Shown here: positions 3,436 to 50,367 of the stretch, in pieces | Layout: each line of letters starts with the position of its first letter | Position numbering within the stretch: position 1 is the first letter of the stretch | From: an uncultured Bacteroidales bacterium | Lineage (GTDB): Bacteria > Bacteroidota > Bacteroidia > Bacteroidales > UBA12077 | Assembly: GCA_964504155.1 (NCBI GenBank) | Contig: CAZDCZ010000001.1 | Coordinates: 28,451 to 92,450 of the forward strand | DNA length: 64,000 bases | Direction of reading: 5' to 3' | The notes under the pieces: model-generated | Told to the model about the DNA's origin: nothing | Seen by the model: the letters and a program-made list of their open reading frames with translations, nothing else | Database searches by the model: none | Program-made: the position numbers and the translations under genes

Positions 3436-3891
3436 CTAATTATTTATATATGAATCTATAATTTCGTTAAAACTATCAAGAGTTAAATTAGTATAATACT
3501 TATCGTTAATCGACATAACAGGCCCCATACTGCAAGCTCCCATACATTCTGTAATTTCGAGACTAAATAGATTATTTTTTGCAGTCTCTTTATCTCTTAT
3601 CTTTAGTTTTTTATATAATTCAGTAATTAATAATTTACTTTTATTAATATGACAAGTAGTCCCCTCACAAATTTTTATATGATATTTTCCTTTCGGAACA
3701 AATCGAAAATAGCTATAGAATGTAGCTAATCCGTAAATTTTACTAGTTGCAATTCCAATATATTCTCCAATCTTTTTAATTGCATCCTCCGATAAATAAC
3801 CTTGTTGTTCTTGCACATCTTGTAATATAGGAACTAGATCATCTTTTTTAACAAATGGATACTTATTAAGTATTGAATTAATATCAAACAT
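3436..3891 (-). CDS. hydC: NuoE-like [2Fe-2S] subunit (HydC paralog 1)
   Basis: Similar to the other two NuoE-like ORFs (YLSEDAI..ATFYSYF..ICEGTTCH..CMGACSMGPV). The track ORF starts at 3933. I place the start at the internal Met (MFDINS, 3891) because a -7 promoter box sits at 3931-3938. Confidence 0.85.
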   Translation of the reverse strand: MFDINSILNKYPFVKKDDLVPILQDVQEQQGYLSEDAIKKIGEYIGIATSKIYGLATFYSYFRFVPKGKYHIKICEGTTCHINKSKLLITELYKKLKIRDKETAKNNLFSLEITECMGACSMGPVMSINDKYYTNLTLDSFNEIIDSYINN

Positions 3892-3930
3892 TGCTATGAA
3901 TTTTACATAATTTACACAAAACAAATAACA

Positions 3931-3985
3931 CAAATATAAAATATTTTTTGTTATTTTCTAAACATTGTTATTTTAATAACATTAC
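3931..3985 (-). promoter_or_regulatory. Promoter/operator site 1: TGTTA-N6-TAACA palindrome (3966-3981), AAAAATAACAAA block and -7 box TATATTTG (3931-3938)
   Basis: Read directly from the sequence. The same architecture recurs at 16172-16225 and 24561-24613. This copy lies in the divergent region between hydC paralog 1 and the hydS operon. Confidence 0.6.
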
Positions 3986-4121
3986 AAAAATCTAAATATC
4001 AATATAATTACTCACTAATAGCTATAAAAATTATTACAATAGAAATAATTTAATTAATTTTGATATTTATTTTCTAATAAATACAGATAGAGTTAATTAA
4101 ATATTGTTAAAATATTTCTGA

Positions 4122-4379
4122 ATGGGAAATGAATCTATAACAAAAACAGAAATAGTAATTTGCTTAGGAAGTTCTTGTTTTTCGCGAGGAAATAAAGAAA
4201 TTGTAAATATTATTAAAGCATATATTAAAGATAATCAATTAGAAGATAAAATTAATTTCCATGGTTGTCATTGTTTTAGTAAATGTAGCGAAGGACCGAT
4301 TCTAAAAGTCAACGAAAAAATACATACTGAAATATCAACTCAAAATATTCTTAATATATTAAATACAATTTCATTTTAA
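4122..4379 (+). CDS. Small thioredoxin-like [2Fe-2S] ferredoxin
   Basis: 85 aa with a CLGSSC..GCHCFSKCSEGP cysteine pattern (Cx4C...Cx3C) in a NuoE/HydC-like fold. It is the first gene of the plus-strand hydS operon. Confidence 0.65.
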   Translation: MGNESITKTEIVICLGSSCFSRGNKEIVNIIKAYIKDNQLEDKINFHGCHCFSKCSEGPILKVNEKIHTEISTQNILNILNTISF

Positions 4380-4462: not shown

Positions 4463-6325
4463 ATGTCGATAATAAAAATAAATACTGATAAATGCGATTT
4501 AAGTTACTCGTGTGTACGAGTTTGTTCGGTAAAAGCAATTGAAATTAAAACAAATACTAATTTCGCAAGAATAATCCCTGAACGATGCATTGGTTGTGGC
4601 GACTGCTTTTCTGTTTGTCCGAATAATGCAATAGAATATATAGATTCTAAAGAAATAACAAAAGAAATATTAAAATCGGCAAGTAAAACAGTTGCCATTG
4701 TTGACCCCAGTATTTCAGGAGAATTTTCTGATATTACTGATTATAGGAAATTTGTACAAATGATACGCGAATTAGGGTTTAACTATGTAAATGAAATTTC
4801 ATTTGGAGCCGATATTATTTCGAAAAAATACAAAGATTTATTAAAAGAATTTAAAGGCAAATATTATATAACATCAGCTTGCCCGGTTGTTGTATCATAT
4901 ATTCAAAAATACAAACCCGAACTTATAAACAATCTAATTCCTTTAGTATCGCCTACGCTTGCAACTGCAATTATAGTACAAAAACTTTATGGAAAAGATA
5001 TTAAAATAATTTCTATTGGTCCATGCATAGAGAATAAAAACGACGATAAATATATAAATAACAAAGATAAAAAAATTGATGCATCAATCACATTTACAGA
5101 ATTACGCGAACTCTTTAACGAATATAATATTTCTGAAAGCAAATTAGAATATTCCGATTTTGATGCTCCTATTGGATATAAAGGCTCTCTTCTGCCTATT
5201 TCTAATGGAATTCTTCAGGCTAGCGAAATTAACGAAAATCTATTAGATGGGAATATCATTACATCGGAAGGGAAAAACAATATTAAAGATGTAACAAATC
5301 AATTTTATAAAAAAATTACTTTCATAAAAAAACATTTCAATCTATTTTTTTGTAAGGGATGTATTATGGGGCCGGGAATGTCGGCAAATGGAGAGAAATT
5401 TACCAGAAGCTCTATGGTTACTAAATATGCCCGAAAAAGATTGAAAAATTTTAACGAAAGTAAATGGCAAGAAGAAATTGACAAATATATAAATCTTGAC
5501 TACTCAACAAGTTTTTTTAACGACGACCAAAGGATTGAATCTCCTCCTAATGAAAAAATTCAAGAAGTATTAAAAGTTATAGGAAAAACAAATTCTCAAC
5601 GAGGATGTAACGCCTGCGGTTACAACACATGTAAAGAATTTGCAATTGCTGTATCGAAAGGTCTTGCAAAAACCGAAATGTGCTTAACATATGCTTTACA
5701 AAATAAACATGAATATATAGATGCTTTAAGTTTGACAAATACAAAACTTGCAAATACAAAAAAAGCACTCATTAAATCGGAACAAGAAGCAAGAAAAGAA
5801 AAAGAAATTGCCATAGAAGCATCCGAAACAGTAAATACTCTATTACAAAAACTACCTTCGGGTTTTGTAATTATAGATAATAAGCTAAAAATTATTCAAT
5901 CGAATAAAAGCTTTGTTAAACTTCTTGGCGACGAAGCAGAAGCTATAAATGAAGTAATTCCCGGACTAGAAGGTGCCGATTTAAAAACTCTTCTTCCTTA
6001 TAATATTTATACTCTTTTTAATAATGTAATATCGGAAAATAGCAATCTAAAAAATAAAGATGTTTATGTAAACAATAAACTCCTAAATCTATCGATATTT
6101 ATTATTAATAAAAACAAAACTGCAGGAGCTGTATTCAGAGATATGTATTCGCCAGAAGTACGAAAAGAAGAAGTAATTAATCGTGTTACAGATGTAATAG
6201 ATAAAAATCTGAAAATGGTACAAAAAATTGGTTTTATTCTTGGTGAAGAAGCATCGGAAACCGAACAAATGTTAAACTCGATTATTGAGTTTTACAAATC
6301 GGGAAATAATAAAAAGAAAATATAA
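4463..6325 (+). CDS. hydS: Sensory [FeFe]-hydrogenase-like protein with a PAS domain (HydS, Group C-like)
   Basis: N-terminal ferredoxin motifs (CIGCGDCFSVCP). H-domain with modified motifs TSACPVV (4871-4885), GPCIENK and FFCKGCIMGPG. An extra 4-Cys segment (CNACGYNTCKEF..C), then a coiled region and a PAS-like C-terminus (LPSGFVIIDNKLKIIQSNKSF). Confidence 0.8.
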   Translation: MSIIKINTDKCDLSYSCVRVCSVKAIEIKTNTNFARIIPERCIGCGDCFSVCPNNAIEYIDSKEITKEILKSASKTVAIVDPSISGEFSDITDYRKFVQMIRELGFNYVNEISFGADIISKKYKDLLKEFKGKYYITSACPVVVSYIQKYKPELINNLIPLVSPTLATAIIVQKLYGKDIKIISIGPCIENKNDDKYINNKDKKIDASITFTELRELFNEYNISESKLEYSDFDAPIGYKGSLLPISNGILQASEINENLLDGNIITSEGKNNIKDVTNQFYKKITFIKKHFNLFFCKGCIMGPGMSANGEKFTRSSMVTKYARKRLKNFNESKWQEEIDKYINLDYSTSFFNDDQRIESPPNEKIQEVLKVIGKTNSQRGCNACGYNTCKEFAIAVSKGLAKTEMCLTYALQNKHEYIDALSLTNTKLANTKKALIKSEQEARKEKEIAIEASETVNTLLQKLPSGFVIIDNKLKIIQSNKSFVKLLGDEAEAINEVIPGLEGADLKTLLPYNIYTLFNNVISENSNLKNKDVYVNNKLLNLSIFIINKNKTAGAVFRDMYSPEVRKEEVINRVTDVIDKNLKMVQKIGFILGEEASETEQMLNSIIEFYKSGNNKKKI

Positions 6326-11897: not shown

Positions 11898-12293
11898 TTA
11901 CTTATCGATATTTTGATAATTCTCCGGAATAATTCCTTCAACAAGTTCTCCGTTTTTAATATATTTTTCGATTATCTCATCTGCTTTTTTCACATCAACA
12001 TAACCAAAAACTATTGGGTTTTCGCCGGGTTTATGTACTTCTATAGTTGGTTCTGCAAAACAATACCCCATATCTCCAACTTGAGTAACAACAGCGTCGA
12101 TATTTCTTTTTTCGAGAGCTTCTATTAAGAAATCCATTACTTCTTTTGCTCCTGAAGCAATACCACTTGTAGCCATACCAACCTTAATTTGCACATATGA
12201 ATCAGGATGATCGGCTCTTTCTCTGATATTAACTTTCGATTGCAAATCTTCTTTCATTTTTTTTAGATCTGCTAAAGTTTTAATTTTTGCCAT
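11898..12293 (-). CDS. Small Cys-poor thioredoxin-like protein (HydD-like accessory subunit)
   Basis: 131 aa. It resembles the Trx-like ferredoxin domain, but the cluster ligands are replaced (GMATSGIASG, GDMGYCFAEP). It sits directly upstream of hydB. Confidence 0.6.
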   Translation of the reverse strand: MAKIKTLADLKKMKEDLQSKVNIRERADHPDSYVQIKVGMATSGIASGAKEVMDFLIEALEKRNIDAVVTQVGDMGYCFAEPTIEVHKPGENPIVFGYVDVKKADEIIEKYIKNGELVEGIIPENYQNIDK

Positions 12294-13995: not shown

Positions 13996-15351
13996 TTAAC
14001 ATTTATGGTTTAAATTATTTTCACCCCAAATATTTTTTAAAATATCGTATGATTTCTCGTTATCGATAATTCCATTTTTCTCAAAATTCTTTTGAATAAA
14101 AATACATTGATCGATAACAGCTCTATTTTGAACTATATCTTCGGCCAAAGCACGGCAATTTGGAGCACCACAAACACCACAATCAATATTTGGCAAGCAC
14201 GACATAATCTCGCGTACACGTTTCATTTTATTTATAGCCACATCCATGTTTTCATCTAACTTCATCATCGATCGTGGTTTAATTTCTAATATCTTACTAT
14301 TGTCGATTAAATATTTACTATTTTTAAATAAGCTTTCATTATCGGAATTATCGGTTAATTTTTCGGCTCTTCTTTTCAGTCTGTCAACAGTTAAAAATCT
14401 GTTTGCTGTAGATAATACTCCACCGGCACAACTTTCATCACACGAACGAAGTTCAATAAAATCGACATCTTTAATCTCGTTATCTTCTACTTTTTCGAGA
14501 AACTCAATAACATTATGAATACCATCAATAGCAAAACTTCTTCCTTTAATATTAGATGCCTCACCATTTGTTAAACTCCACATTATACCTTTGGAAGAAA
14601 GGTTTTTCGATACTAAATTCTCTTCTGCAAATACTTTTTCACTAGTCTTATTATTAGTTATACTACTAAGAACCTTATTATAAACGAAATCCATATTAAT
14701 AACACCATTAATAACTGATATATCGTCTCCTACAGGACTTTTTATTGCTGCAATTTTTGCGGCGCAAGGAGTAACATAAAATATTCCTATTGCATCTTTA
14801 TCTACACCTTCTTTTATTAACTTATCTTTATAGTAAAGAGCTGCCATATCTAAAGGAGAGCGTAAGTGAACAATATTATTTACTAATGATGGAAACTTAA
14901 CTTGAATTAATCGAATAATTGCAGGACAAAAAGACGATAATAATGGTTTTTCGATATTTTTATCGTCTATTAAGTTATTAATTTCAGTATTTATTAAGTC
15001 GGCACAATGCTCAACTTCAAAGACATCGGTAAATCCTAATTCGAAAAGAGCTTTATATACATCATTAGATTTTGTTTCGTCGGGAAATTGTCCAAACAAT
15101 ACAGATGGCAATAGAGCTACTCTATTTTTATATTCGAATATTTTCTTAAAATCGTCTTGCTCAATAATTATTGCATTTACAGGACAAGCTTTAAAGCATT
15201 CGCCACAATCGACACATTTATGCTCAAACAATTCGGCTTTCCCATTACGAATACGTATTGCTTCTGTTGGACACACATTCATACACCGAGAACATCCAAC
15301 ACAAACATCTTTTTGTATCTTTAAAGCATGATGAAAGCTATTTTCCTGCAT
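13996..15351 (-). CDS. [FeFe]-hydrogenase-like sensory protein without a PAS domain (HydS-like 2)
   Basis: Two ferredoxin motifs (CVGCSRCMNVCP, CVDCGECFKACP). H-domain with SSFCPAII (14923-14937), TPCAAK and RSCDESCAGG. C-terminal 4-Cys segment CGVCGAPNCRAL..C. Confidence 0.75.
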   Translation of the reverse strand: MQENSFHHALKIQKDVCVGCSRCMNVCPTEAIRIRNGKAELFEHKCVDCGECFKACPVNAIIIEQDDFKKIFEYKNRVALLPSVLFGQFPDETKSNDVYKALFELGFTDVFEVEHCADLINTEINNLIDDKNIEKPLLSSFCPAIIRLIQVKFPSLVNNIVHLRSPLDMAALYYKDKLIKEGVDKDAIGIFYVTPCAAKIAAIKSPVGDDISVINGVINMDFVYNKVLSSITNNKTSEKVFAEENLVSKNLSSKGIMWSLTNGEASNIKGRSFAIDGIHNVIEFLEKVEDNEIKDVDFIELRSCDESCAGGVLSTANRFLTVDRLKRRAEKLTDNSDNESLFKNSKYLIDNSKILEIKPRSMMKLDENMDVAINKMKRVREIMSCLPNIDCGVCGAPNCRALAEDIVQNRAVIDQCIFIQKNFEKNGIIDNEKSYDILKNIWGENNLNHKC

Positions 15352-15775: not shown

Positions 15776-16120
15776 TTAATATATAGGTTTAATCCCGTTT
15801 TTATAAAGTTCTCCAACAACCTTAAACACTGTACAAGAAGACTTTATTATAACAATATCGCAATCATCTGCTAATTTTACCATCTGTTCTGATACATTTT
15901 TATTTCTTGCTACAATAACGCAAGCTATATCAGACATCTCGGCTGTTCGTATTACTTGCATATTTGACAATCCAGTAATAAGAATTATATCGTCAGAATC
16001 AAGAGTTAAAACATCACTCATTAAATCTGAAGCAAAACCATTTTCTATAGTTTTGTTAAGAAATGCTTTTCCAGAAATAACTTTTCCATTTATTAAATGT
16101 ACAATCTCTTCTATTCTCAT
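15776..16120 (-). CDS. DRTGG-domain protein (paralog 1); first gene of the 10-gene operon
   Basis: 114 aa, paralogous to 13633-13980. Confidence 0.55.
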   Translation of the reverse strand: MRIEEIVHLINGKVISGKAFLNKTIENGFASDLMSDVLTLDSDDIILITGLSNMQVIRTAEMSDIACVIVARNKNVSEQMVKLADDCDIVIIKSSCTVFKVVGELYKNGIKPIY

Positions 16121-16171
16121 TTCAATCTAATTGAATATATTGTTATCTAAATTCTATTTATAAATTTTCGA

Positions 16172-16225
16172 CAAAGGTAATATCTTTTTGTTATTTTTTT
16201 AACAGTGTTATTGTAGTAACACTTA
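16172..16225 (-). promoter_or_regulatory. Promoter/operator site 2: AGTGTTA-N6-TAACACT palindrome (16204-16223), AAAAATAACAAA block and -7 box TACCTTTG (16172-16179)
   Basis: Read directly from the sequence. It aligns with sites 1 and 3. Confidence 0.6.
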
Positions 16226-16648: not shown

Positions 16649-19600
16649 ATGACAAAAAACAATTTAAATAAAAACCAAGTTGAAAGTTTATCGAACAATA
16701 ACTATAATTCTTCTATTTCTGAGCAAAAAAATATAGAATCTAAACTAGAAAAATATAAAGCAATATTCGACAACTCGGCAGAAGGAATTGCATATATCAC
16801 AAACACAGGAAAGATTATAGATGTTAATAAAACATTTATAAATTGTACCGGCCTTTCTATTTTACATAAAGATATAATTGGGAAACATGTATTTTCTATT
16901 GCAAAGCAATTTATAGCAGCAAAAAACATTAACAATACTCTAAAAATTGTAAAACATTTGCTCTCAGGAAAAGACATTGATTCATTTGAGCTTATTACAA
17001 AAAATAAAAAAACACTTAGAATATCCCCCAGATTTATAGAAAAACAGGGAGGAATTGTAATAATAATCAGAGACATAACTGAGACAAAAAAAATAACTAA
17101 AGCACTCCATGAAAGCGAAGAACTCCATAAGAAAATAATACAAAATCAAGGTGAAGGAATGGGAATTGTTAACACAAACGAAATATTTATATATTCCAAT
17201 CCTGCTGCTCATGAAATTTTTGGGGTGCCATTAGGCACACTAAATGGCAGAAATGTGTTTGAATTTTTAGATGAAAAAGGGAAAAAAAAGATACTTAACG
17301 AAACTAAAAAACGAATTTCCGGAAAAAGATCTACATATGAATTTAATATTATACGGCCTGATGGAGAAGAACGAACTATACTATTAACTGCTTCTCCACA
17401 AAGTAATAATAATGGGGAGATAGTAAGCACATTTGGTATATATAGAGATATTACTCAAAGAAGAAAAACAGAAATTGCTTTACAAAATAGTGAAAAAAGC
17501 TTACGTAAAGCACAACAACTCTCTAAAGTAGCTTCTTGGGAAATAGATTTGATTAATAAAAAATTCTCTTGCTCAGATGAATTTTATAATATATACGAAA
17601 TAGAAAAACAAGAGATAAAAAGCAGCACTGAAATAATAAACAAATATGTTCATCCCGATGACAAAAAGTTTTTTAAATTATCGGAAAATCGTATCCCCAA
17701 AAACGAAGATTTAACTTCTATCGAGTTTCGAATTATTACTCCAAACAAAAATACAAAATGGATACACTCTTCTAATCCTGAAATAATATATAAAAATAAA
17801 AAAGCTGTTAAACTAATTGGCATAAACCAAGATATTACAGAAAGAAAAAATGCAGAATTAAAACTTTCGCAAAAAACTACAGAACTTACAGTTTTACTTG
17901 ATTTAATACCTGCTTTTGTTTATTTTAAAGATTTTAATTTAAACTATATTTCGGTAAATAAAGCATTAGCTAAAATATCGAAATATTCAGAAAATGAAAT
18001 ACCCGGAAAAAACGACCTTGGTATTTGGGATAAAGAAACTGCAAAAAAATACAGAGATAACGATAAAAAAATACTTGATATCGGAAAACCAAAATATAAC
18101 ATAATAGAAAAAGTGCAAAGAAAAGATGGGACAACATTCTGGTCGTCTACTTCAAAAGTTCCTTATTATAATAATAAAAATATATTAAAAGGACTGATTG
18201 GTATTACTTGGGATATTTCGGAAATAAAAGGAAACGAAGAAAAATTAAAACAAGCAATTAAAGAAGCTAAAAATGCAAACAGATTAAAAAGTGATTTTCT
18301 TGCTAATATGAGTCACGAAATTCGTACTCCGATGAATGCTATATTAGGCTTCTCCGAAATTCTTAAGAGTAAACTCAGTAACTTTCCTGAATATTCGAGT
18401 TTTATTAACGGAATATATAATAATGGACAGAATCTTCTTCAATTAATAAATGACATTTTGGATTTATCGAAAATTGAAGCCAACAAACTGGAAATACAAA
18501 AAGGTACAGTTAATCTATCTAAAATTATTACAGAATTTAAGAATATTTTTTCTCTACAAATTAAAGAGAAAAAAATAAATTTCAATATTAATATCGACGA
18601 AGATCTTCCTGATGTATTACGACTTGATCAGACACGAATACGGCAAATTTTATTCAATTTAATTGGGAATGCTGTAAAATTTACCAACCAAGGAGAAATA
18701 AGAGTTTCGGTAAAATTTAGGAATAATTTAACATTAGAAAATAAAATTGATTTGTTTTTTGAAATAAAAGACACAGGAATTGGAATTCCAATTGATCAAC
18801 AAAAAGAAATTTTCGAAGCATTTGTTCAACAAGATAGTCAAAGCACACGAAAATACAAAGGCACAGGACTTGGATTAACAATAACAAAACGCTTAGTTGA
18901 AATGATGGATGGAAACATTTCTGTTTCAAGCATCCCTAATGTAGGCTCGTCATTTAAAATATTTTTAAAAAACGTTGACATTCCAAATATTAATTTAAAA
19001 GGAGTAAACAATATTACAGAAAATGTAAATCGAAATATTATTTTCGACAAAGAGACTATTTTACTTGTAGAAGACTCAGAATCGAACAGACAAATAATAA
19101 AACTGTTTCTTTCGGCACACAATTTAAATGTTATTGAAGCAAGGAATGGAAAAATAGCTCTTGATATTGCAAGAAAAATAAAGCCTTCGCTAATACTAAT
19201 GGACATACAAATGCCTGAAATGACAGGAGATATAAGCGCTAAACTTATTAAAGAAAATTCGGAATTAAAATCAATACCAATTATTGCATTAACAGCATAT
19301 ACAATAACAGATCAAATAAATAAATATAAAGATCTTTTCAACTACTACATTCTAAAACCGGTGTCGAAAAATAAATTAATAAGTGTATTAAGTAAATATT
19401 TACCCTATAAAACAACTATTAATAATCAGGAAAATTTAGAATCAATAAATTATCTTGCAGAAATAGAAAAAATACAAAATTTCGATTCTCAATTAATTTA
19501 CGAAATTAAAAGTACGATAATTCCTGTATTTTTAATTGTGTCTAAAGGTATTTCAATTGATGAAATATTAAATTTCTCGAACCAGCTAATTAAATTAGGC

Positions 19601-19738
19601 AAAAAATATAATATTTCTCCATTATTAGATTATGCAAAAGATTTACAGGCTGCAACAAATGAATTTCGTTTTGGAGAAATTGAAACACTACTAAATTTAT
19701 TTAGTAATATCTCGAATGTAATAATAGGGAAAAAATAA
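16649..19738 (+). CDS. Hybrid sensor histidine kinase (multiple PAS domains, HisKA, HATPase, receiver, C-terminal Hpt-like region)
   Basis: H-box SHEIRTPMNAILGFSE. N/G boxes NLIGNAVKFT..DTGIGI..GTGLGL. Receiver ILLVEDSESN..LILMDIQMPEMTG. Several PAS-like repeats lie upstream. Confidence 0.85.
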   Translation: MTKNNLNKNQVESLSNNNYNSSISEQKNIESKLEKYKAIFDNSAEGIAYITNTGKIIDVNKTFINCTGLSILHKDIIGKHVFSIAKQFIAAKNINNTLKIVKHLLSGKDIDSFELITKNKKTLRISPRFIEKQGGIVIIIRDITETKKITKALHESEELHKKIIQNQGEGMGIVNTNEIFIYSNPAAHEIFGVPLGTLNGRNVFEFLDEKGKKKILNETKKRISGKRSTYEFNIIRPDGEERTILLTASPQSNNNGEIVSTFGIYRDITQRRKTEIALQNSEKSLRKAQQLSKVASWEIDLINKKFSCSDEFYNIYEIEKQEIKSSTEIINKYVHPDDKKFFKLSENRIPKNEDLTSIEFRIITPNKNTKWIHSSNPEIIYKNKKAVKLIGINQDITERKNAELKLSQKTTELTVLLDLIPAFVYFKDFNLNYISVNKALAKISKYSENEIPGKNDLGIWDKETAKKYRDNDKKILDIGKPKYNIIEKVQRKDGTTFWSSTSKVPYYNNKNILKGLIGITWDISEIKGNEEKLKQAIKEAKNANRLKSDFLANMSHEIRTPMNAILGFSEILKSKLSNFPEYSSFINGIYNNGQNLLQLINDILDLSKIEANKLEIQKGTVNLSKIITEFKNIFSLQIKEKKINFNINIDEDLPDVLRLDQTRIRQILFNLIGNAVKFTNQGEIRVSVKFRNNLTLENKIDLFFEIKDTGIGIPIDQQKEIFEAFVQQDSQSTRKYKGTGLGLTITKRLVEMMDGNISVSSIPNVGSSFKIFLKNVDIPNINLKGVNNITENVNRNIIFDKETILLVEDSESNRQIIKLFLSAHNLNVIEARNGKIALDIARKIKPSLILMDIQMPEMTGDISAKLIKENSELKSIPIIALTAYTITDQINKYKDLFNYYILKPVSKNKLISVLSKYLPYKTTINNQENLESINYLAEIEKIQNFDSQLIYEIKSTIIPVFLIVSKGISIDEILNFSNQLIKLGKKYNISPLLDYAKDLQAATNEFRFGEIETLLNLFSNISNVIIGKK

Positions 19739-19771
19739 ATAAAAACAAATAAAATTAACTAAATTGATAAT

Positions 19772-20956
19772 ATGAATGCTGAAGAAATACAATTATCTAA
19801 ACCTAATGTATTAATTGTAGATGACACTGAAGAAAACTTGCGTCTATTAAGTAATCACTTATACAATAAAGGAATAAATGTGATTATAGCAAAAGATGGT
19901 AAAACGGCTCTAGAAATAGTTAACACTAAACCTCCGGATTTAATATTGCTAGATATTATGATGCCGGGAATTAATGGATTCAAAGTATGTCAAGAACTTA
20001 AAAAAAACACAAAAACTAAAAATATTCCCATAATATTTCTTACAGCTAAAACCGAAATTAACGATATTGTTAAAGGTTTTACTATTGGGGCAGTTGATTA
20101 TATTACAAAGCCTTTTAATTCTACCGAACTATTATCAAGAGTATTTACTCATATAGAACTTAAAAAATCGAAAGATATAATAAAAATACATAGTGGACAT
20201 GTGGAAGAGTTGAATGCAATACTAAATAAAAAAAATAAACAACTATACAAGCAAAACGAAGAACTAAAAACATTAAACATAACAAAAGATAAATTATTTT
20301 CGATAATTGCACACGACCTTAAAACTCCGTTCAATCAGCTTATTGAAATATCGGAATTAACCCTTATGGATATCGATAATTTAAGCTTATACGATTTAAA
20401 AGAAAATATAAGGCAAATACATTTGGCGTCGCTAAATGGCGAAAACCTTTTACAAAACTTATTAGATTGGGCGAAACATAAATTAGGTTCAATTAAATTC
20501 AATCCTCAAAAAATTATATTGTCGAAAGTTATTAATACTACATTTATTTATCTTAAAGATTTAGCAAACGAAAAAAACATTACACTTGTCTCAAATATAA
20601 AAGAAGATATTACTGTTACCGCCGAAGATGAAATGCTAAATATAATTATTCGCAACCTTATTTCTAATGCAATAAAATTTACAAATACAGGTGGAAGAGT
20701 TGAAATAAGCAATAAAGCAAACAACAATTATCAAATAATTACAATAGAAGATAATGGCATAGGTATTACACCTGAAGATTTAACAAAACTATTCAGAATG
20801 GATGAAAATTACTCAATTGAGGGTACAGCTCAAGAAAAAGGAACCGGAATAGGATTAATAATATGTAAAGAATTTATTAAGAAACATGAAGGGAAAATAT
20901 GGGTAGAAAGTAAATTAGGAGAAGGCAGTAAATTTAAATTTTCGATACCAATATAA
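19772..20956 (+). CDS. Response-regulator receiver fused to a histidine kinase core
   Basis: Receiver LIVDDTEENL..LILLDIMMPGINGF..KP. H-box-like FSIIAHDLKTPFN. HATPase NLISNAIKFT..DNGIGI..GTGIGL. No DNA-binding domain. Confidence 0.85.
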   Translation: MNAEEIQLSKPNVLIVDDTEENLRLLSNHLYNKGINVIIAKDGKTALEIVNTKPPDLILLDIMMPGINGFKVCQELKKNTKTKNIPIIFLTAKTEINDIVKGFTIGAVDYITKPFNSTELLSRVFTHIELKKSKDIIKIHSGHVEELNAILNKKNKQLYKQNEELKTLNITKDKLFSIIAHDLKTPFNQLIEISELTLMDIDNLSLYDLKENIRQIHLASLNGENLLQNLLDWAKHKLGSIKFNPQKIILSKVINTTFIYLKDLANEKNITLVSNIKEDITVTAEDEMLNIIIRNLISNAIKFTNTGGRVEISNKANNNYQIITIEDNGIGITPEDLTKLFRMDENYSIEGTAQEKGTGIGLIICKEFIKKHEGKIWVESKLGEGSKFKFSIPI

Positions 20957-24560: not shown

Positions 24561-24613
24561 CAATTTTAAGATTTATTTGTTATTTTTTTCACACTGTTAT
24601 TTCCGTAACAGTG
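24561..24613 (-). promoter_or_regulatory. Promoter/operator site 3: CACTGTTA-N6-TAACAGTG palindrome (24592-24613), AAAAATAACAAA block and -7-like box TAAAATTG (24561-24568)
   Basis: Read directly from the sequence. The -7-like box ends 7 nt before the ATG. Confidence 0.55.
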
Positions 24614-49485: not shown

Positions 49486-50367
49486 TTATGCTCGTGGATG
49501 AGCTTGTTTATAAATAGCTTTTAATTTCTCAAATGTATTATGGGTGTATATTTGGGTTGCAGATAAGTTAGCATGCCCAAGTATTTCTTTAATTGCATTT
49601 AATTCTGCGCCATTATTTAACATATGGGTAGCAAATGTGTGTCTTAAAACGTGGGGGCTTTTTTTCTCGATGGGAGAAACCAAATTCAAGTATTTATTAA
49701 CTATACGATAAACAAATTTCTCATATAGTTTTTCTCCTTTATTAGTAAAGAAAAAATAATCTGTATTATCTTTCCACTCTTTCTTTTTATATTCAATATA
49801 TTTTTCTAATTGATATATAAAAGATGTGGTTAATGGGATTATTCTTTCTTTATTTCGTTTTCCCAAGACTTTTATTTGCTTTGAAAAAAAATCAATATCA
49901 GACGATTTAATATTTATTAATTCAAATAAACGAATTCCCGTAAAATAAAACATTTCTAATATTGTTTTATCTCTGACTCCTGAAAAATTATCTTCAAAAA
50001 CAACATCATCTAATAATTGGTTCATTTCTTTATTATCGAAGAAATAAGGTAGTTTTTTAGATAATTTAGGAAATATTATTTTATCCATAGGATTTACTAC
50101 TATAATATTCTCTCTTTGAAGGAATTTAAAGTATGATTTAAGTGTTGATAGCTTTCTTCTAATAGTAAGAACCGAAAAATCTTTTTCTATCAAATCTACA
50201 ATCCAATTTCTTATATTTTTCTCATCTACACATTCATCATTTAGATTTTCATTATGAAGATTTAAATAATGAGCAAATTGTTCTATGTCGTGCTTGTATG
50301 CACGAACAGTATGAACGGAAAAACGTTTTTCGAATTGTATATAGTTTAGAAAAAGATCTTTATTCAT
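49486..50367 (-). CDS. Tyrosine recombinase, XerC/XerD-like
   Basis: Catalytic residues R..HxLRHTFAT..GH..T.IYTH. Confidence 0.85.
   Translation of the reverse strand: MNKDLFLNYIQFEKRFSVHTVRAYKHDIEQFAHYLNLHNENLNDECVDEKNIRNWIVDLIEKDFSVLTIRRKLSTLKSYFKFLQRENIIVVNPMDKIIFPKLSKKLPYFFDNKEMNQLLDDVVFEDNFSGVRDKTILEMFYFTGIRLFELINIKSSDIDFFSKQIKVLGKRNKERIIPLTTSFIYQLEKYIEYKKKEWKDNTDYFFFTNKGEKLYEKFVYRIVNKYLNLVSPIEKKSPHVLRHTFATHMLNNGAELNAIKEILGHANLSATQIYTHNTFEKLKAIYKQAHPRA

What the first reader, a model, noticed from the sequence alone, without database searches (positions are those of the whole stretch)
16172..16225. Operator/promoter site 2, in front of the 10-gene sensor plus bifurcating-hydrogenase operon
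This is the best-formed copy of the shared architecture. It has a perfect 7+7 palindrome AGTGTTA-N6-TAACACT (16204-16223), the TTTGTTATTTTTTT block (plus strand, 16187-16200) and an exact TAnnTTTG box (TACCTTTG, 16172-16179) about 50 nt upstream of the ATG at 16120.

The flanking bases of the palindrome co-vary between sites (AGTGTTA/TAACACT here, CACTGTTA/TAACAGTG at site 3). That is what one expects if symmetry itself is under selection, as it would be for a dimeric DNA-binding protein.
Basis: seen in the sequence. Interest (0 to 1): 0.6.

Follow-up and report, generated by a model that had tools for sequence, protein, structure and literature searches.

The report
Tandem Rex operators before hydrogenase operon
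This is a pair of adjacent binding sites for Rex, the repressor that senses the cell's NADH/NAD+ balance, sitting on the promoter of a hydrogen-producing enzyme operon in an uncultured Bacteroidales bacterium; it is a well-known kind of redox switch, here in a conserved double-site form.

Summary
The sequence features are real. However, the "T-rich block" is the left half of a second palindrome. The site is therefore two abutting 16-bp boxes, TGTTA-N6-TAACA at 16189-16204 and 16206-16221, whose starts are 17 bp apart. A Bacteroidetes-type -7 promoter box (TACCTTTG) lies 9 nt downstream.

The same double box precedes two other NADH-linked [FeFe]-hydrogenase operons in the window. Three such pairs occur in the window and none in 200 simulations.

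Loci retrieved by protein similarity alone carry the pair in 49 of 51 orthologous Bacteroidales/Lentimicrobiaceae loci, even though the flanking DNA has diverged.

The box matches the published Rex operator consensus (TTGTGAAnnnnTTCACAA; clostridial TTGTTAAnnnnTTAACAA). A rex gene (207 aa, above NCBIfam Rex cut-offs) lies on the same contig about 4 kb beyond the window's left edge, at the end of the site-1 gene string.

A metagenome scan for the double box gave 119 stretches. 81 lie directly upstream of hydrogenase-cluster genes and 9 directly upstream of rex genes, including contigs of 51-71% GC.

Verdict: these are Rex operators that most likely repress the operon until NADH rises. This is a new member of a known kind, of modest interest. 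The flank "co-variation" argument is weak.

The parts
16206..16221 (.). Promoter-distal Rex box, 16-bp core TGTTATTGTAGTAACA. The 18-bp operator is 16205-16222.
   Evidence: Exact match to TGTTA-N6-TAACA. The box is conserved at the same place in 49 of 51 orthologous loci, with consensus nTGTTAtttaanTAACAn.
16189..16204 (.). Promoter-proximal Rex box, core TGTTATTTTTTTAACA. It reads TGTTAAAAAAATAACA on the coding strand and starts 17 bp from the distal box. It covers roughly -22 to -37 of the predicted promoter.
   Evidence: Exact match. The 17-bp offset is the only one seen, and none arose in simulations. The orthologous consensus is nTGTGAAnaaaaTAACAa.
16172..16179 (-). Bacteroidetes sigma-A type -7 promoter box TACCTTTG (TAnnTTTG), 9 nt downstream of the proximal box.
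   Evidence: Sequence read. A TAnnTTTG box lies 9-11 nt after the proximal box in the window and all 14 close-clade orthologues. The consensus is cited in PMC7366714.
7789..16120 (-). The regulated 10-gene operon: DRTGG, HATPase, HydS-like sensory [FeFe]-hydrogenase, DRTGG, PHP phosphatase, HATPase, a 131-aa protein, then HydB (NuoF-like), HydA and HydC (NuoE-like).
   Evidence: Pfam scan. The gene order is conserved in the relatives.
3949..3981 (.). Site 1, the same double box: distal 3966-3981 is exact, proximal 3949-3964 is TGTTTAGAAAATAACA on the coding strand (1 mismatch). The -7 box TATATTTG is at 3931-3938 (minus strand). It precedes a gene string of NuoE-like (ATG 3891), NuoF-like and HydA-like genes that ends in rex outside the window.
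   Evidence: The orthologues in L070 and L072 keep the weak proximal half-site.
24578..24610 (.). Site 3, the same double box: proximal 24578-24593 is TGTGAAAAAAATAACA on the coding strand, distal 24595-24610. It ends 24 nt before the ATG (24553) of hydC-hydB-hydA.
   Evidence: The double box is conserved, ending 21-24 nt before the ATG, in 5 of 5 close orthologues.

Best explanation
The site is a double operator for the redox-sensing repressor Rex, laid over the sigma-A (Bacteroidetes-type) promoter of the sensor plus electron-bifurcating [FeFe]-hydrogenase operon.

Proposed mechanism:
[quoted passage not shown] Its half-sites are TGTTA/TGTGA and TAACA, with centres 11 bp apart.
- The proximal dimer covers the -33 region of the promoter and the distal dimer abuts it. 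RNA polymerase is excluded and the operon stays off.
- When NADH accumulates, NADH binding to the Rossmann domains closes the dimer and Rex leaves the DNA. The NADH-oxidising, H2-evolving hydrogenase is then made.
- The same switch sits on the two other NADH-linked hydrogenase promoters in the window (sites 1 and 3). Through site 1 it probably controls rex itself, which lies at the end of that gene string.

Shown here: the motif, its significance, its conservation, its match to the Rex consensus, the presence and family membership of rex on the same contig, and the association of the double box with rex genes elsewhere.

Inferred: actual binding, NADH responsiveness, repression rather than activation, occupancy by two dimers, and which of the two Rex paralogues found in this clade binds.
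For: 1. Motif. Two exact TGTTA-N6-TAACA boxes abut each other. This matches the published Rex operator: the general consensus TTGTGAANNNNTTCACAA and the Clostridiaceae consensus TTGTTAANNNNTTAACAA (PMC8457756; PMC6391272; PMC5317091).

2. Statistics. The window has three pairs at a 17-bp offset, none at other offsets, and none arose in 200 simulations.

3. Targets. All three sites precede operons with NuoE/NuoF-type NADH modules plus [FeFe]-hydrogenase. This is the classical type of Rex target, and hydrogenase operons are Rex targets in C. thermocellum and C. bescii.

4. Phylogenetic footprint. Loci were retrieved by HydS protein similarity only (52-65% identity, GC 32-47%). 49 of 51 carry the double box upstream of the first gene, while the flanking sequence diverges.

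5. Regulator. A 207-aa Rex (PF06971 + PF02629) is encoded on the same contig, about 4.1-4.7 kb left of window position 1. It scores 205 bits against NCBIfam NF003995, whose cut-off is 126. It aligns full-length to B. subtilis Rex 2vt2 (E = 4.6e-34) and to other Rex structures, with the RRD recognition-helix motif and the GxGxxG motif conserved. The gene order NuoE-NuoF-HydA-HydS/HK-RR-RR/HK-Rex-RibF, with the double box upstream, is conserved in L070 and L072.

6. Guilt by association. A pattern scan of metagenomes returned 119 stretches. 81 lie directly upstream of hydrogenase-cluster genes. 9 lie 20-109 nt upstream of rex genes, on contigs of 31-71% GC. 4 lie upstream of glutamate dehydrogenase.

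7. Geometry suited to repression. The proximal box lies 9-10 nt upstream of the -7 box at sites 1 and 2. At site 3 the double box ends only 21-24 nt before the ATG.

8. No other DNA-binding regulator was found in the cluster. The response regulators there are receiver-only or are fused to kinases.
Against: - There is no binding or expression data.
- The clade carries two Rex paralogues that are only 31% identical and that coexist on the same contigs. The binding partner is therefore not uniquely assigned.
- In the window organism no Rex box lies in the 66-nt gap directly upstream of rex. Autoregulation therefore depends on co-transcription from site 1, which has not been shown.
- In the Lentimicrobiaceae clade the boxes sit just upstream of the -33 element rather than on it, which is a less classical position for a repressor.
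- Inner positions 6 and 11 of the boxes do not follow the A/T pattern of the canonical Rex consensus consistently.
- The core half-sites are also those of CRP-type sites.
Confidence: 0.85

Rival explanations
1. The palindromes are sites for a Crp/Fnr-family regulator, whose classical site is TGTGA-N6-TCACA. Such a regulator could activate or repress the hydrogenase operons in response to another signal.
For: The half-sites TGTGA/TGTTA with a 6-bp spacer are the same as those of the CRP consensus (established knowledge). Many proximal boxes in the orthologues read TGTGA. Crp/Fnr regulators are common in Bacteroidota (own knowledge, not tested here).
Against: None of the window ORFs scanned against Pfam is a Crp/Fnr protein. 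None was seen among the called genes of the related hydrogenase clusters. By contrast, rex genes are embedded in those clusters. The same double box lies 20-109 nt upstream of rex genes in 9 independent metagenome contigs. A box overlapping the -33 region, or ending 21-24 nt before the ATG, does not fit class I or class II activation geometry.
Confidence: 0.06
2. The site is the DNA target of the H2-sensing phosphorelay encoded alongside it (HydS-like sensors, kinases, phosphatases, receiver proteins), acting through an unidentified DNA-binding output protein.
For: Three HydS-type sensory hydrogenases with kinase or phosphatase partners are encoded in the cluster. Transcriptional feedback by H2 would make biological sense.
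Against: No component of the relay has a DNA-binding domain. The receivers stand alone or are fused to HisKA/HATPase. The double box also precedes hydrogenase operons that lack the sensor genes (L062; the many 'unk131' hits). It also precedes rex and gdh genes.
Confidence: 0.04
3. The palindromes act at the RNA level, as hairpins in a leader or an attenuator, rather than as protein-binding DNA.
For: Each palindrome can form a small stem-loop. The minimum free energy of the 71-nt region is -8.3 kcal/mol.
Against: The fold is not better than shuffled sequence (z = -1.49; 13 of 200 shuffles fold at least as well). Rfam gives no match and no terminator-like site was found. At sites 1 and 2 the boxes lie upstream of the -7 box and so would not be transcribed. 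Across the orthologues the specific bases TGTKA/TMACA are invariant rather than changing in a compensatory way.
Confidence: 0.01

Closest known systems
Rex operators (ROP) of Clostridia, e.g. C. acetobutylicum, C. thermocellum and Caldicellulosiruptor bescii, upstream of [FeFe]-hydrogenase and fermentation genes
   Same: The half-sites are the same. The Clostridiaceae consensus is TTGTTAANNNNTTAACAA and the general consensus is TTGTGAANNNNTTCACAA. The type of target is the same (NADH-recycling iron-only hydrogenase operons). The logic is the same, with derepression when NADH/NAD+ rises.
   Different: The phylum differs (uncultured Bacteroidales), so the boxes sit on a TAnnTTTG/-33 type promoter rather than a -10/-35 promoter. 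At these operons the boxes come as an obligatory abutting pair, 17 bp start to start. The outer T/A and the inner A/T of the 18-mer are poorly kept.
Caldithrix abyssi rex-hydrogenase operon (Cabys_3675-3679)
   Same: A member of the FCB group has rex physically linked to a bifurcating [FeFe]-hydrogenase. It has a candidate box, cTGTGAATCAATTCACAt, upstream (PMC5317091).
   Different: There rex is the first gene of the operon and a single box is reported. Here rex is at the end of a longer gene string and the boxes are doubled.
Streptomyces coelicolor Rex/ROP, the founding member (Brekasis and Paget 2003, cited)
   Same: An NADH/NAD+-sensing winged-helix plus Rossmann-fold repressor that binds a TGTGA-N6-TCACA palindrome. 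It regulates its own expression (own knowledge). The metagenome scan found the same double box directly upstream of rex on 64-71% GC contigs.
   Different: The targets there are respiratory genes (own knowledge: cyd and nuo). Here they are fermentative hydrogenases.
E. coli CRP site (TGTGA-N6-TCACA)
   Same: The core half-sites and spacer are identical.
   Different: The position relative to the promoter differs, no Crp/Fnr gene is nearby, and the site associates with rex genes.

Membership tests
Rex operator (ROP / Rex box) | A 16-18 bp inverted repeat with TGTGA (or TGTTA) and TCACA (or TAACA) half-sites separated by 6 bp | tested here: met
   Both boxes are exact TGTTA-N6-TAACA. The orthologous consensus is TGTKA-N6-TMACA. 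The published consensus sequences were read.
Rex operator (ROP / Rex box) | A cognate rex gene is present in the same genome | tested here: met
   A 207-aa Rex is at L068:17434-18057, on the same contig as the window (ENA ERZ27248110 k141_291850), about 4.1-4.7 kb left of window position 1.
Rex operator (ROP / Rex box) | Located in the promoter or 5' region of NAD(H)-linked redox or fermentation genes | tested here: met
   All three window sites precede operons with a NuoE/NuoF module plus [FeFe]-hydrogenase. The boxes are adjacent to the -7 box.
Rex operator (ROP / Rex box) | Conserved upstream of orthologous genes in related genomes | tested here: met
   49 of 51 loci retrieved by protein similarity alone carry the double box. 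One further locus has a 1-nt deletion in one spacer.
Rex operator (ROP / Rex box) | The box occurs at rex genes themselves (autoregulation, common but not universal) | tested here: inconclusive
   Nine metagenome contigs have the double box 20-109 nt upstream of rex. The second paralogue has single TGTGA-N6-TCACA boxes at its own start. In the window organism no box lies immediately upstream of rex, so control would have to come from site 1 by co-transcription.
Rex operator (ROP / Rex box) | Bound by Rex in vitro, with binding relieved by NADH | not testable with these tools
   This needs EMSA or footprinting with purified protein, with and without NADH and NAD+.
Rex protein family (for the regulator on the contig) | An N-terminal winged-helix domain (PF06971) plus a C-terminal Rossmann/CoA-binding fold (PF02629), full-length similarity to solved Rex structures, and conserved RRD and GxGxxG motifs | tested here: met
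   Pfam domains. NCBIfam NF003995 at 205 bits against a cut-off of 126, and NF003996 at 176 against 138. PDB matches 2vt2, 3keo, 5zz5, 3wg9 and 3ikt with E from 1e-28 to 5e-34 over residues 2-205. The alignment shows 'vqvrrd' and 'fgignlg'.
Bacteroidetes sigma-A promoter | TAnnTTTG at about -7 (plus a weak TTTG at about -33), at a suitable distance from the start codon | tested here: met
   TACCTTTG lies 52 nt upstream of the ATG. A TAnnTTTG box is conserved in the orthologues, with a TTTG about 19 nt upstream of it in the Lentimicrobiaceae clade. The consensus comes from PMC7366714. The TSS has not been mapped.
Crp/Fnr-type site | A cognate Crp/Fnr regulator and class I/II activator spacing (centres at about -41.5 or -61.5) | tested here: not met
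   No Crp/Fnr ORF was found in the window or the clusters. The box centres fall at about -30 and -47 from the predicted TSS. At site 3 the boxes end 24 nt before the ATG.

The most novel reading that the evidence does not exclude
The strictly kept 17-bp double operator may be a distinct binding mode. Two Rex dimers would sit on nearly opposite faces of the DNA and act as one cooperative unit, giving a sharper NADH switch. The two Rex paralogues of this Bacteroidales clade may also split the hydrogen regulon. The in-cluster 207-aa Rex would use the TGTKA-N6-TAACA double boxes at bifurcating [FeFe]-hydrogenases (and gdh). The hyp-linked 210-aa Rex would use single TGTGA-N6-TCACA boxes at the [NiFe]/Mbh-type hydrogenase and the hyp genes. 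All of this would be layered on an H2-sensing HydS phosphorelay.
Probability: 0.2. Interest if true: 0.5.

Novelty: new member of a known kind. Interest (0 to 1): 0.3.

Why it matters
The finding assigns a concrete and testable regulator (Rex, sensing NADH/NAD+) to three hydrogenase promoters of an uncultured, low-GC Bacteroidales lineage. It also gives a first comparative outline of a Rex regulon in Bacteroidales and Lentimicrobiaceae: bifurcating [FeFe]-hydrogenases, probably rex itself, and glutamate dehydrogenase in relatives. Rex regulons have mostly been described in Firmicutes, Actinobacteria and Thermotogae.

This helps to explain how fermentative Bacteroidales tie H2 production to redox state, and it supplies a ready PWM for annotating MAGs. 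It does not reveal a new mechanism. The only slightly unusual points are the conserved abutting double operator and the coexistence of two divergent Rex paralogues next to different hydrogenase classes.

Tried and rejected
- RNA-level reading. The hairpin fold is not significant, Rfam gives no match, and there is no terminator-like site.
- The sigma-70 promoter scan was uninformative: 6 sites found against 6.2 expected. That is expected for a Bacteroidota promoter.
- I searched the 64-kb window for rex or any other DNA-binding regulator by Pfam. None was found, so I had to walk off the window.
- I guessed that P0039 might be the window organism's Rex because of its contig count. It belongs to a different organism, although it did show rex between an Mbh-type [NiFe]-hydrogenase and the hyp genes.
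- Ravcheev et al. 2012 (PMC3294762) and Schau et al. 2004 (PMC438603) are not held. The Rex consensus is therefore cited second-hand from papers that quote it. My recollection that B. subtilis cydABCD carries several tandem Rex (YdiH) repeats could not be verified.
- The flank co-variation test gave only a weak signal that is confounded by phylogeny.
- Inner spacer positions show no symmetry.
- The single near-matches elsewhere in the window (5281, 6184, 22167, 30691, 36895, 41851, 51663, 53665) all fall inside ORFs. Their number is near chance: 16 found against 11 ± 3 expected.

Full report

- AGTGTTA-N6-TAACACT is at 16204-16223.
- The T-rich run TTTGTTATTTTTTT is at 16187-16200.
- CAAAGGTA is at 16172-16179. 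On the coding (minus) strand it reads TACCTTTG, 52 nt upstream of the ATG at 16120.

A pattern search for the core TGTTA-N6-TAACA changed the picture. The T-rich run is the left arm of a second exact palindrome, TGTTATTTTTTTAACA (16189-16204). This abuts the first core (16206-16221) with one linker base between them.

In each case the box starts are 17 bp apart.

The window contains only four exact matches to the core, and all four are in these three sites. With one mismatch allowed per box (TGTKA-N6-TMACA), three pairs occur at offset 17. None occur at any other offset from 8 to 39, and none arose in 200 Markov simulations of the window.

**2. What lies around it?**

Pfam scans show that all three double boxes precede minus-strand operons for NADH-linked [FeFe]-hydrogenases.
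- Site 2 precedes the 10-gene operon: DRTGG, HATPase, a HydS-like sensory hydrogenase, DRTGG, a PHP phosphatase, HATPase, a 131-aa protein, HydB (NuoF-like), HydA and HydC (NuoE-like).
- Site 3 precedes hydC-hydB-hydA.
- Site 1 precedes a NuoE-like gene, a NuoF-like gene and further genes.

The remaining window ORFs include no DNA-binding regulator. They do include typical Bacteroidota genes, such as peptidase S46, Omp85 and DUF3467 next to rpoC. There are no Shine-Dalgarno sequences upstream of the start codons.

The TAnnTTTG motif is the published -7 element of the Bacteroidetes primary sigma factor (PMC7366714).

**3. Is it conserved?**

I retrieved related loci with the HydS protein alone, so the retrieval was independent of the motif. 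This gave 56 loci from Bacteroidales and Lentimicrobiaceae MAGs, with 52-65% identity and 32-47% GC. The operon order is conserved in them.

In 49 of the 51 loci that include the upstream region of the first gene, a double box is present with at most one mismatch in total and exactly 17-bp phasing. One more locus has a 1-nt deletion in one spacer.

The ten core positions of each box (TGTKA and TMACA) match the pattern in nearly all copies, which were picked as the best pattern match upstream of each gene. Spacers and flanks vary.

A TAnnTTTG box follows 9-11 nt after the proximal box in the window and all 14 close-clade orthologues. In the Lentimicrobiaceae clade a TTTG lies about 5 nt after the box, and a TAnnTTTG follows 19 nt further on.

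At the hydCBA orthologues the double box ends only 21-24 nt before the ATG. More distant relatives use a single box there. The 16-bp palindrome is therefore the basic unit.

**4. What binds it?**

The core equals the published Rex operator.
- The general consensus is TTGTGAANNNNTTCACAA.
- The Clostridiaceae consensus is TTGTTAANNNNTTAACAA.
- These were read in PMC8457756, PMC6391272 and PMC5317091.
- The same papers document iron-only hydrogenase operons as Rex targets. They also describe a rex-bifurcating-hydrogenase operon in Caldithrix.

These genes are confirmed by Pfam and named Rex by their sources.

Walking off the left edge of the window along the same contig revealed a 207-aa Rex at the end of the site-1 gene string: NuoE - NuoF - HydA - HydS/HisKA/HATPase - RR - RR/HK - Rex - RibF. 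It lies about 4.1-4.7 kb beyond window position 1.
- It exceeds the NCBIfam Rex cut-offs.
- It aligns end to end with the solved Rex structures (B. subtilis 2vt2, E = 4.6e-34). The RRD recognition-helix motif and the GxGxxG NADH-binding motif are kept.
- This gene order, with the double box upstream, is conserved in two relatives whose chromosomes also hold the orthologous 10-gene operon.

**5. An independent association test**

I scanned the metagenome collection for the double-box pattern itself. I then classified the genes that start next to each hit.
- 81 hits are directly upstream of hydrogenase-cluster genes.
- 9 are 20-109 nt upstream of rex genes. These include contigs of 51-71% GC whose Rex is only 38-52% identical to the window organism's Rex.
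- 4 are upstream of a 445-aa glutamate dehydrogenase.
- 25 are next to other genes or to nothing recognisable. Some of these are clearly chance hits or tandem repeats.

The link to rex genes across distant lineages is hard to explain unless Rex is the binding protein. It also shows that the 17-bp double arrangement is not peculiar to this lineage.

**6. Mechanism**

The shown and inferred steps are separated in the best explanation. Taking the -7 box as the reference, the TSS falls near 16167. The proximal box then spans roughly -22 to -37, which covers the -33 region, and the distal box spans -39 to -54.

At site 3 the boxes sit between any possible promoter and the ATG. These are positions typical of a repressor.

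The canonical Rex cycle therefore applies: Rex binds at low NADH/NAD+ and is released by NADH. The NADH-consuming, H2-evolving hydrogenases are made when reductant accumulates.

Adjacent half-site centres of the two boxes are 6 bp apart. Two dimers would therefore lie on roughly opposite faces of the helix. This is a geometric inference and was not tested.

**7. Rivals**

- A Crp/Fnr site shares the core, but it lacks a cognate gene, has the wrong geometry, and does not explain the link to rex.
- The HydS phosphorelay has no DNA-binding output.
- An RNA hairpin is not supported.

**8. Open points**

- The clade has two Rex paralogues that are 31% identical and that coexist on the same contigs.
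- The hyp-linked paralogue has single TGTGA-N6-TCACA boxes. One lies at its own (GTG) start and one at the start of a divergent NAD-binding/[NiFe] cluster.
- Which paralogue binds the double boxes cannot be settled here.

**9. Verdict**

It is best explained as a double Rex operator. That makes it a new member of a well-known kind and not a new mechanism.

Noticed in passing
L068:17434-18057 (same contig, about 4.1-4.7 kb left of window position 1): The rex gene (207 aa) sits at the end of the site-1 gene string and is followed by ribF. This order is conserved in relatives (L070, L072). No Rex box lies in the 66-nt gap directly upstream of rex.
   Followed up: yes
L010:2397-2412 and 2584-2599; also L013, L014, L048, L052 and L062: A second Rex paralogue (210 aa, 31% identical to the first) lies between an NAD-binding/FeS (Mbh-type [NiFe]) hydrogenase cluster and hypFCDEAB. 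Single TGTGA-N6-TCACA boxes lie at both divergent gene starts. Its likely GTG start codon lies inside the palindrome.
   Followed up: partly
window 13996-15351, 4463-6325; L068:13689-15683: One cluster encodes three different HydS-type sensory [FeFe]-hydrogenase homologues, each with a different output partner. One has DRTGG/HATPase/PHP partners. One has a SpoIIE (PP2C) phosphatase. One is fused to HisKA-HATPase and is followed by receiver proteins. None of them has a DNA-binding output.
   Followed up: partly
window 11898-12293 (minus strand): A 131-aa protein with no Pfam match precedes HydB. It is 84-88% identical in the relatives, which is far more conserved than the neighbouring sensor genes (57-70%). 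In many metagenome contigs it is the first gene after the double box (27 hits).
   Followed up: partly
L079, L145, L152, L167 (metagenome contigs): The double box lies about 30-36 nt upstream of a 445-aa glutamate dehydrogenase gene. This gene is probably another member of the regulon in relatives.
   Followed up: partly
window 3891-3933: The mechanical ORF call (TTG at 3933, 165 aa) for the NuoE-like gene starts inside the predicted -7 box. The gene caller's ATG at 3891 (151 aa) is the more plausible start.
   Followed up: yes
window 3982-4122 (plus strand): Site 1 lies in a divergent intergenic region. A TAATTTTG -7-like box for the plus-strand Trx-like/HydS2/SpoIIE operon lies about 75 nt from the boxes. 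This divergent arrangement recurs in 13 metagenome hits. Whether the boxes also control that operon is unknown.
   Followed up: no
window 16649-20956: A 1029-aa multi-PAS hybrid histidine kinase and a receiver-HisKA-HATPase protein are inserted between the site-2 and site-3 operons. In the closest relatives (L006, L007) the two operons are adjacent, without these genes.
   Followed up: no
L097:3268-3317 and L169:2725-2757: Human-gut contigs carry a 17-nt unit (TGTTATTATCATAACAA or similar) as a short tandem repeat upstream of a GerA-type spore germination gene. It matches the pattern but is probably unrelated to Rex.
   Followed up: no
window 49486-50367: A tyrosine recombinase (phage-integrase family, XerC/D-like) gene lies next to a very AT-rich stretch (50-52 kb, 22.6% GC), downstream of the ribosomal protein/tuf region. 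It was not examined further.
   Followed up: no
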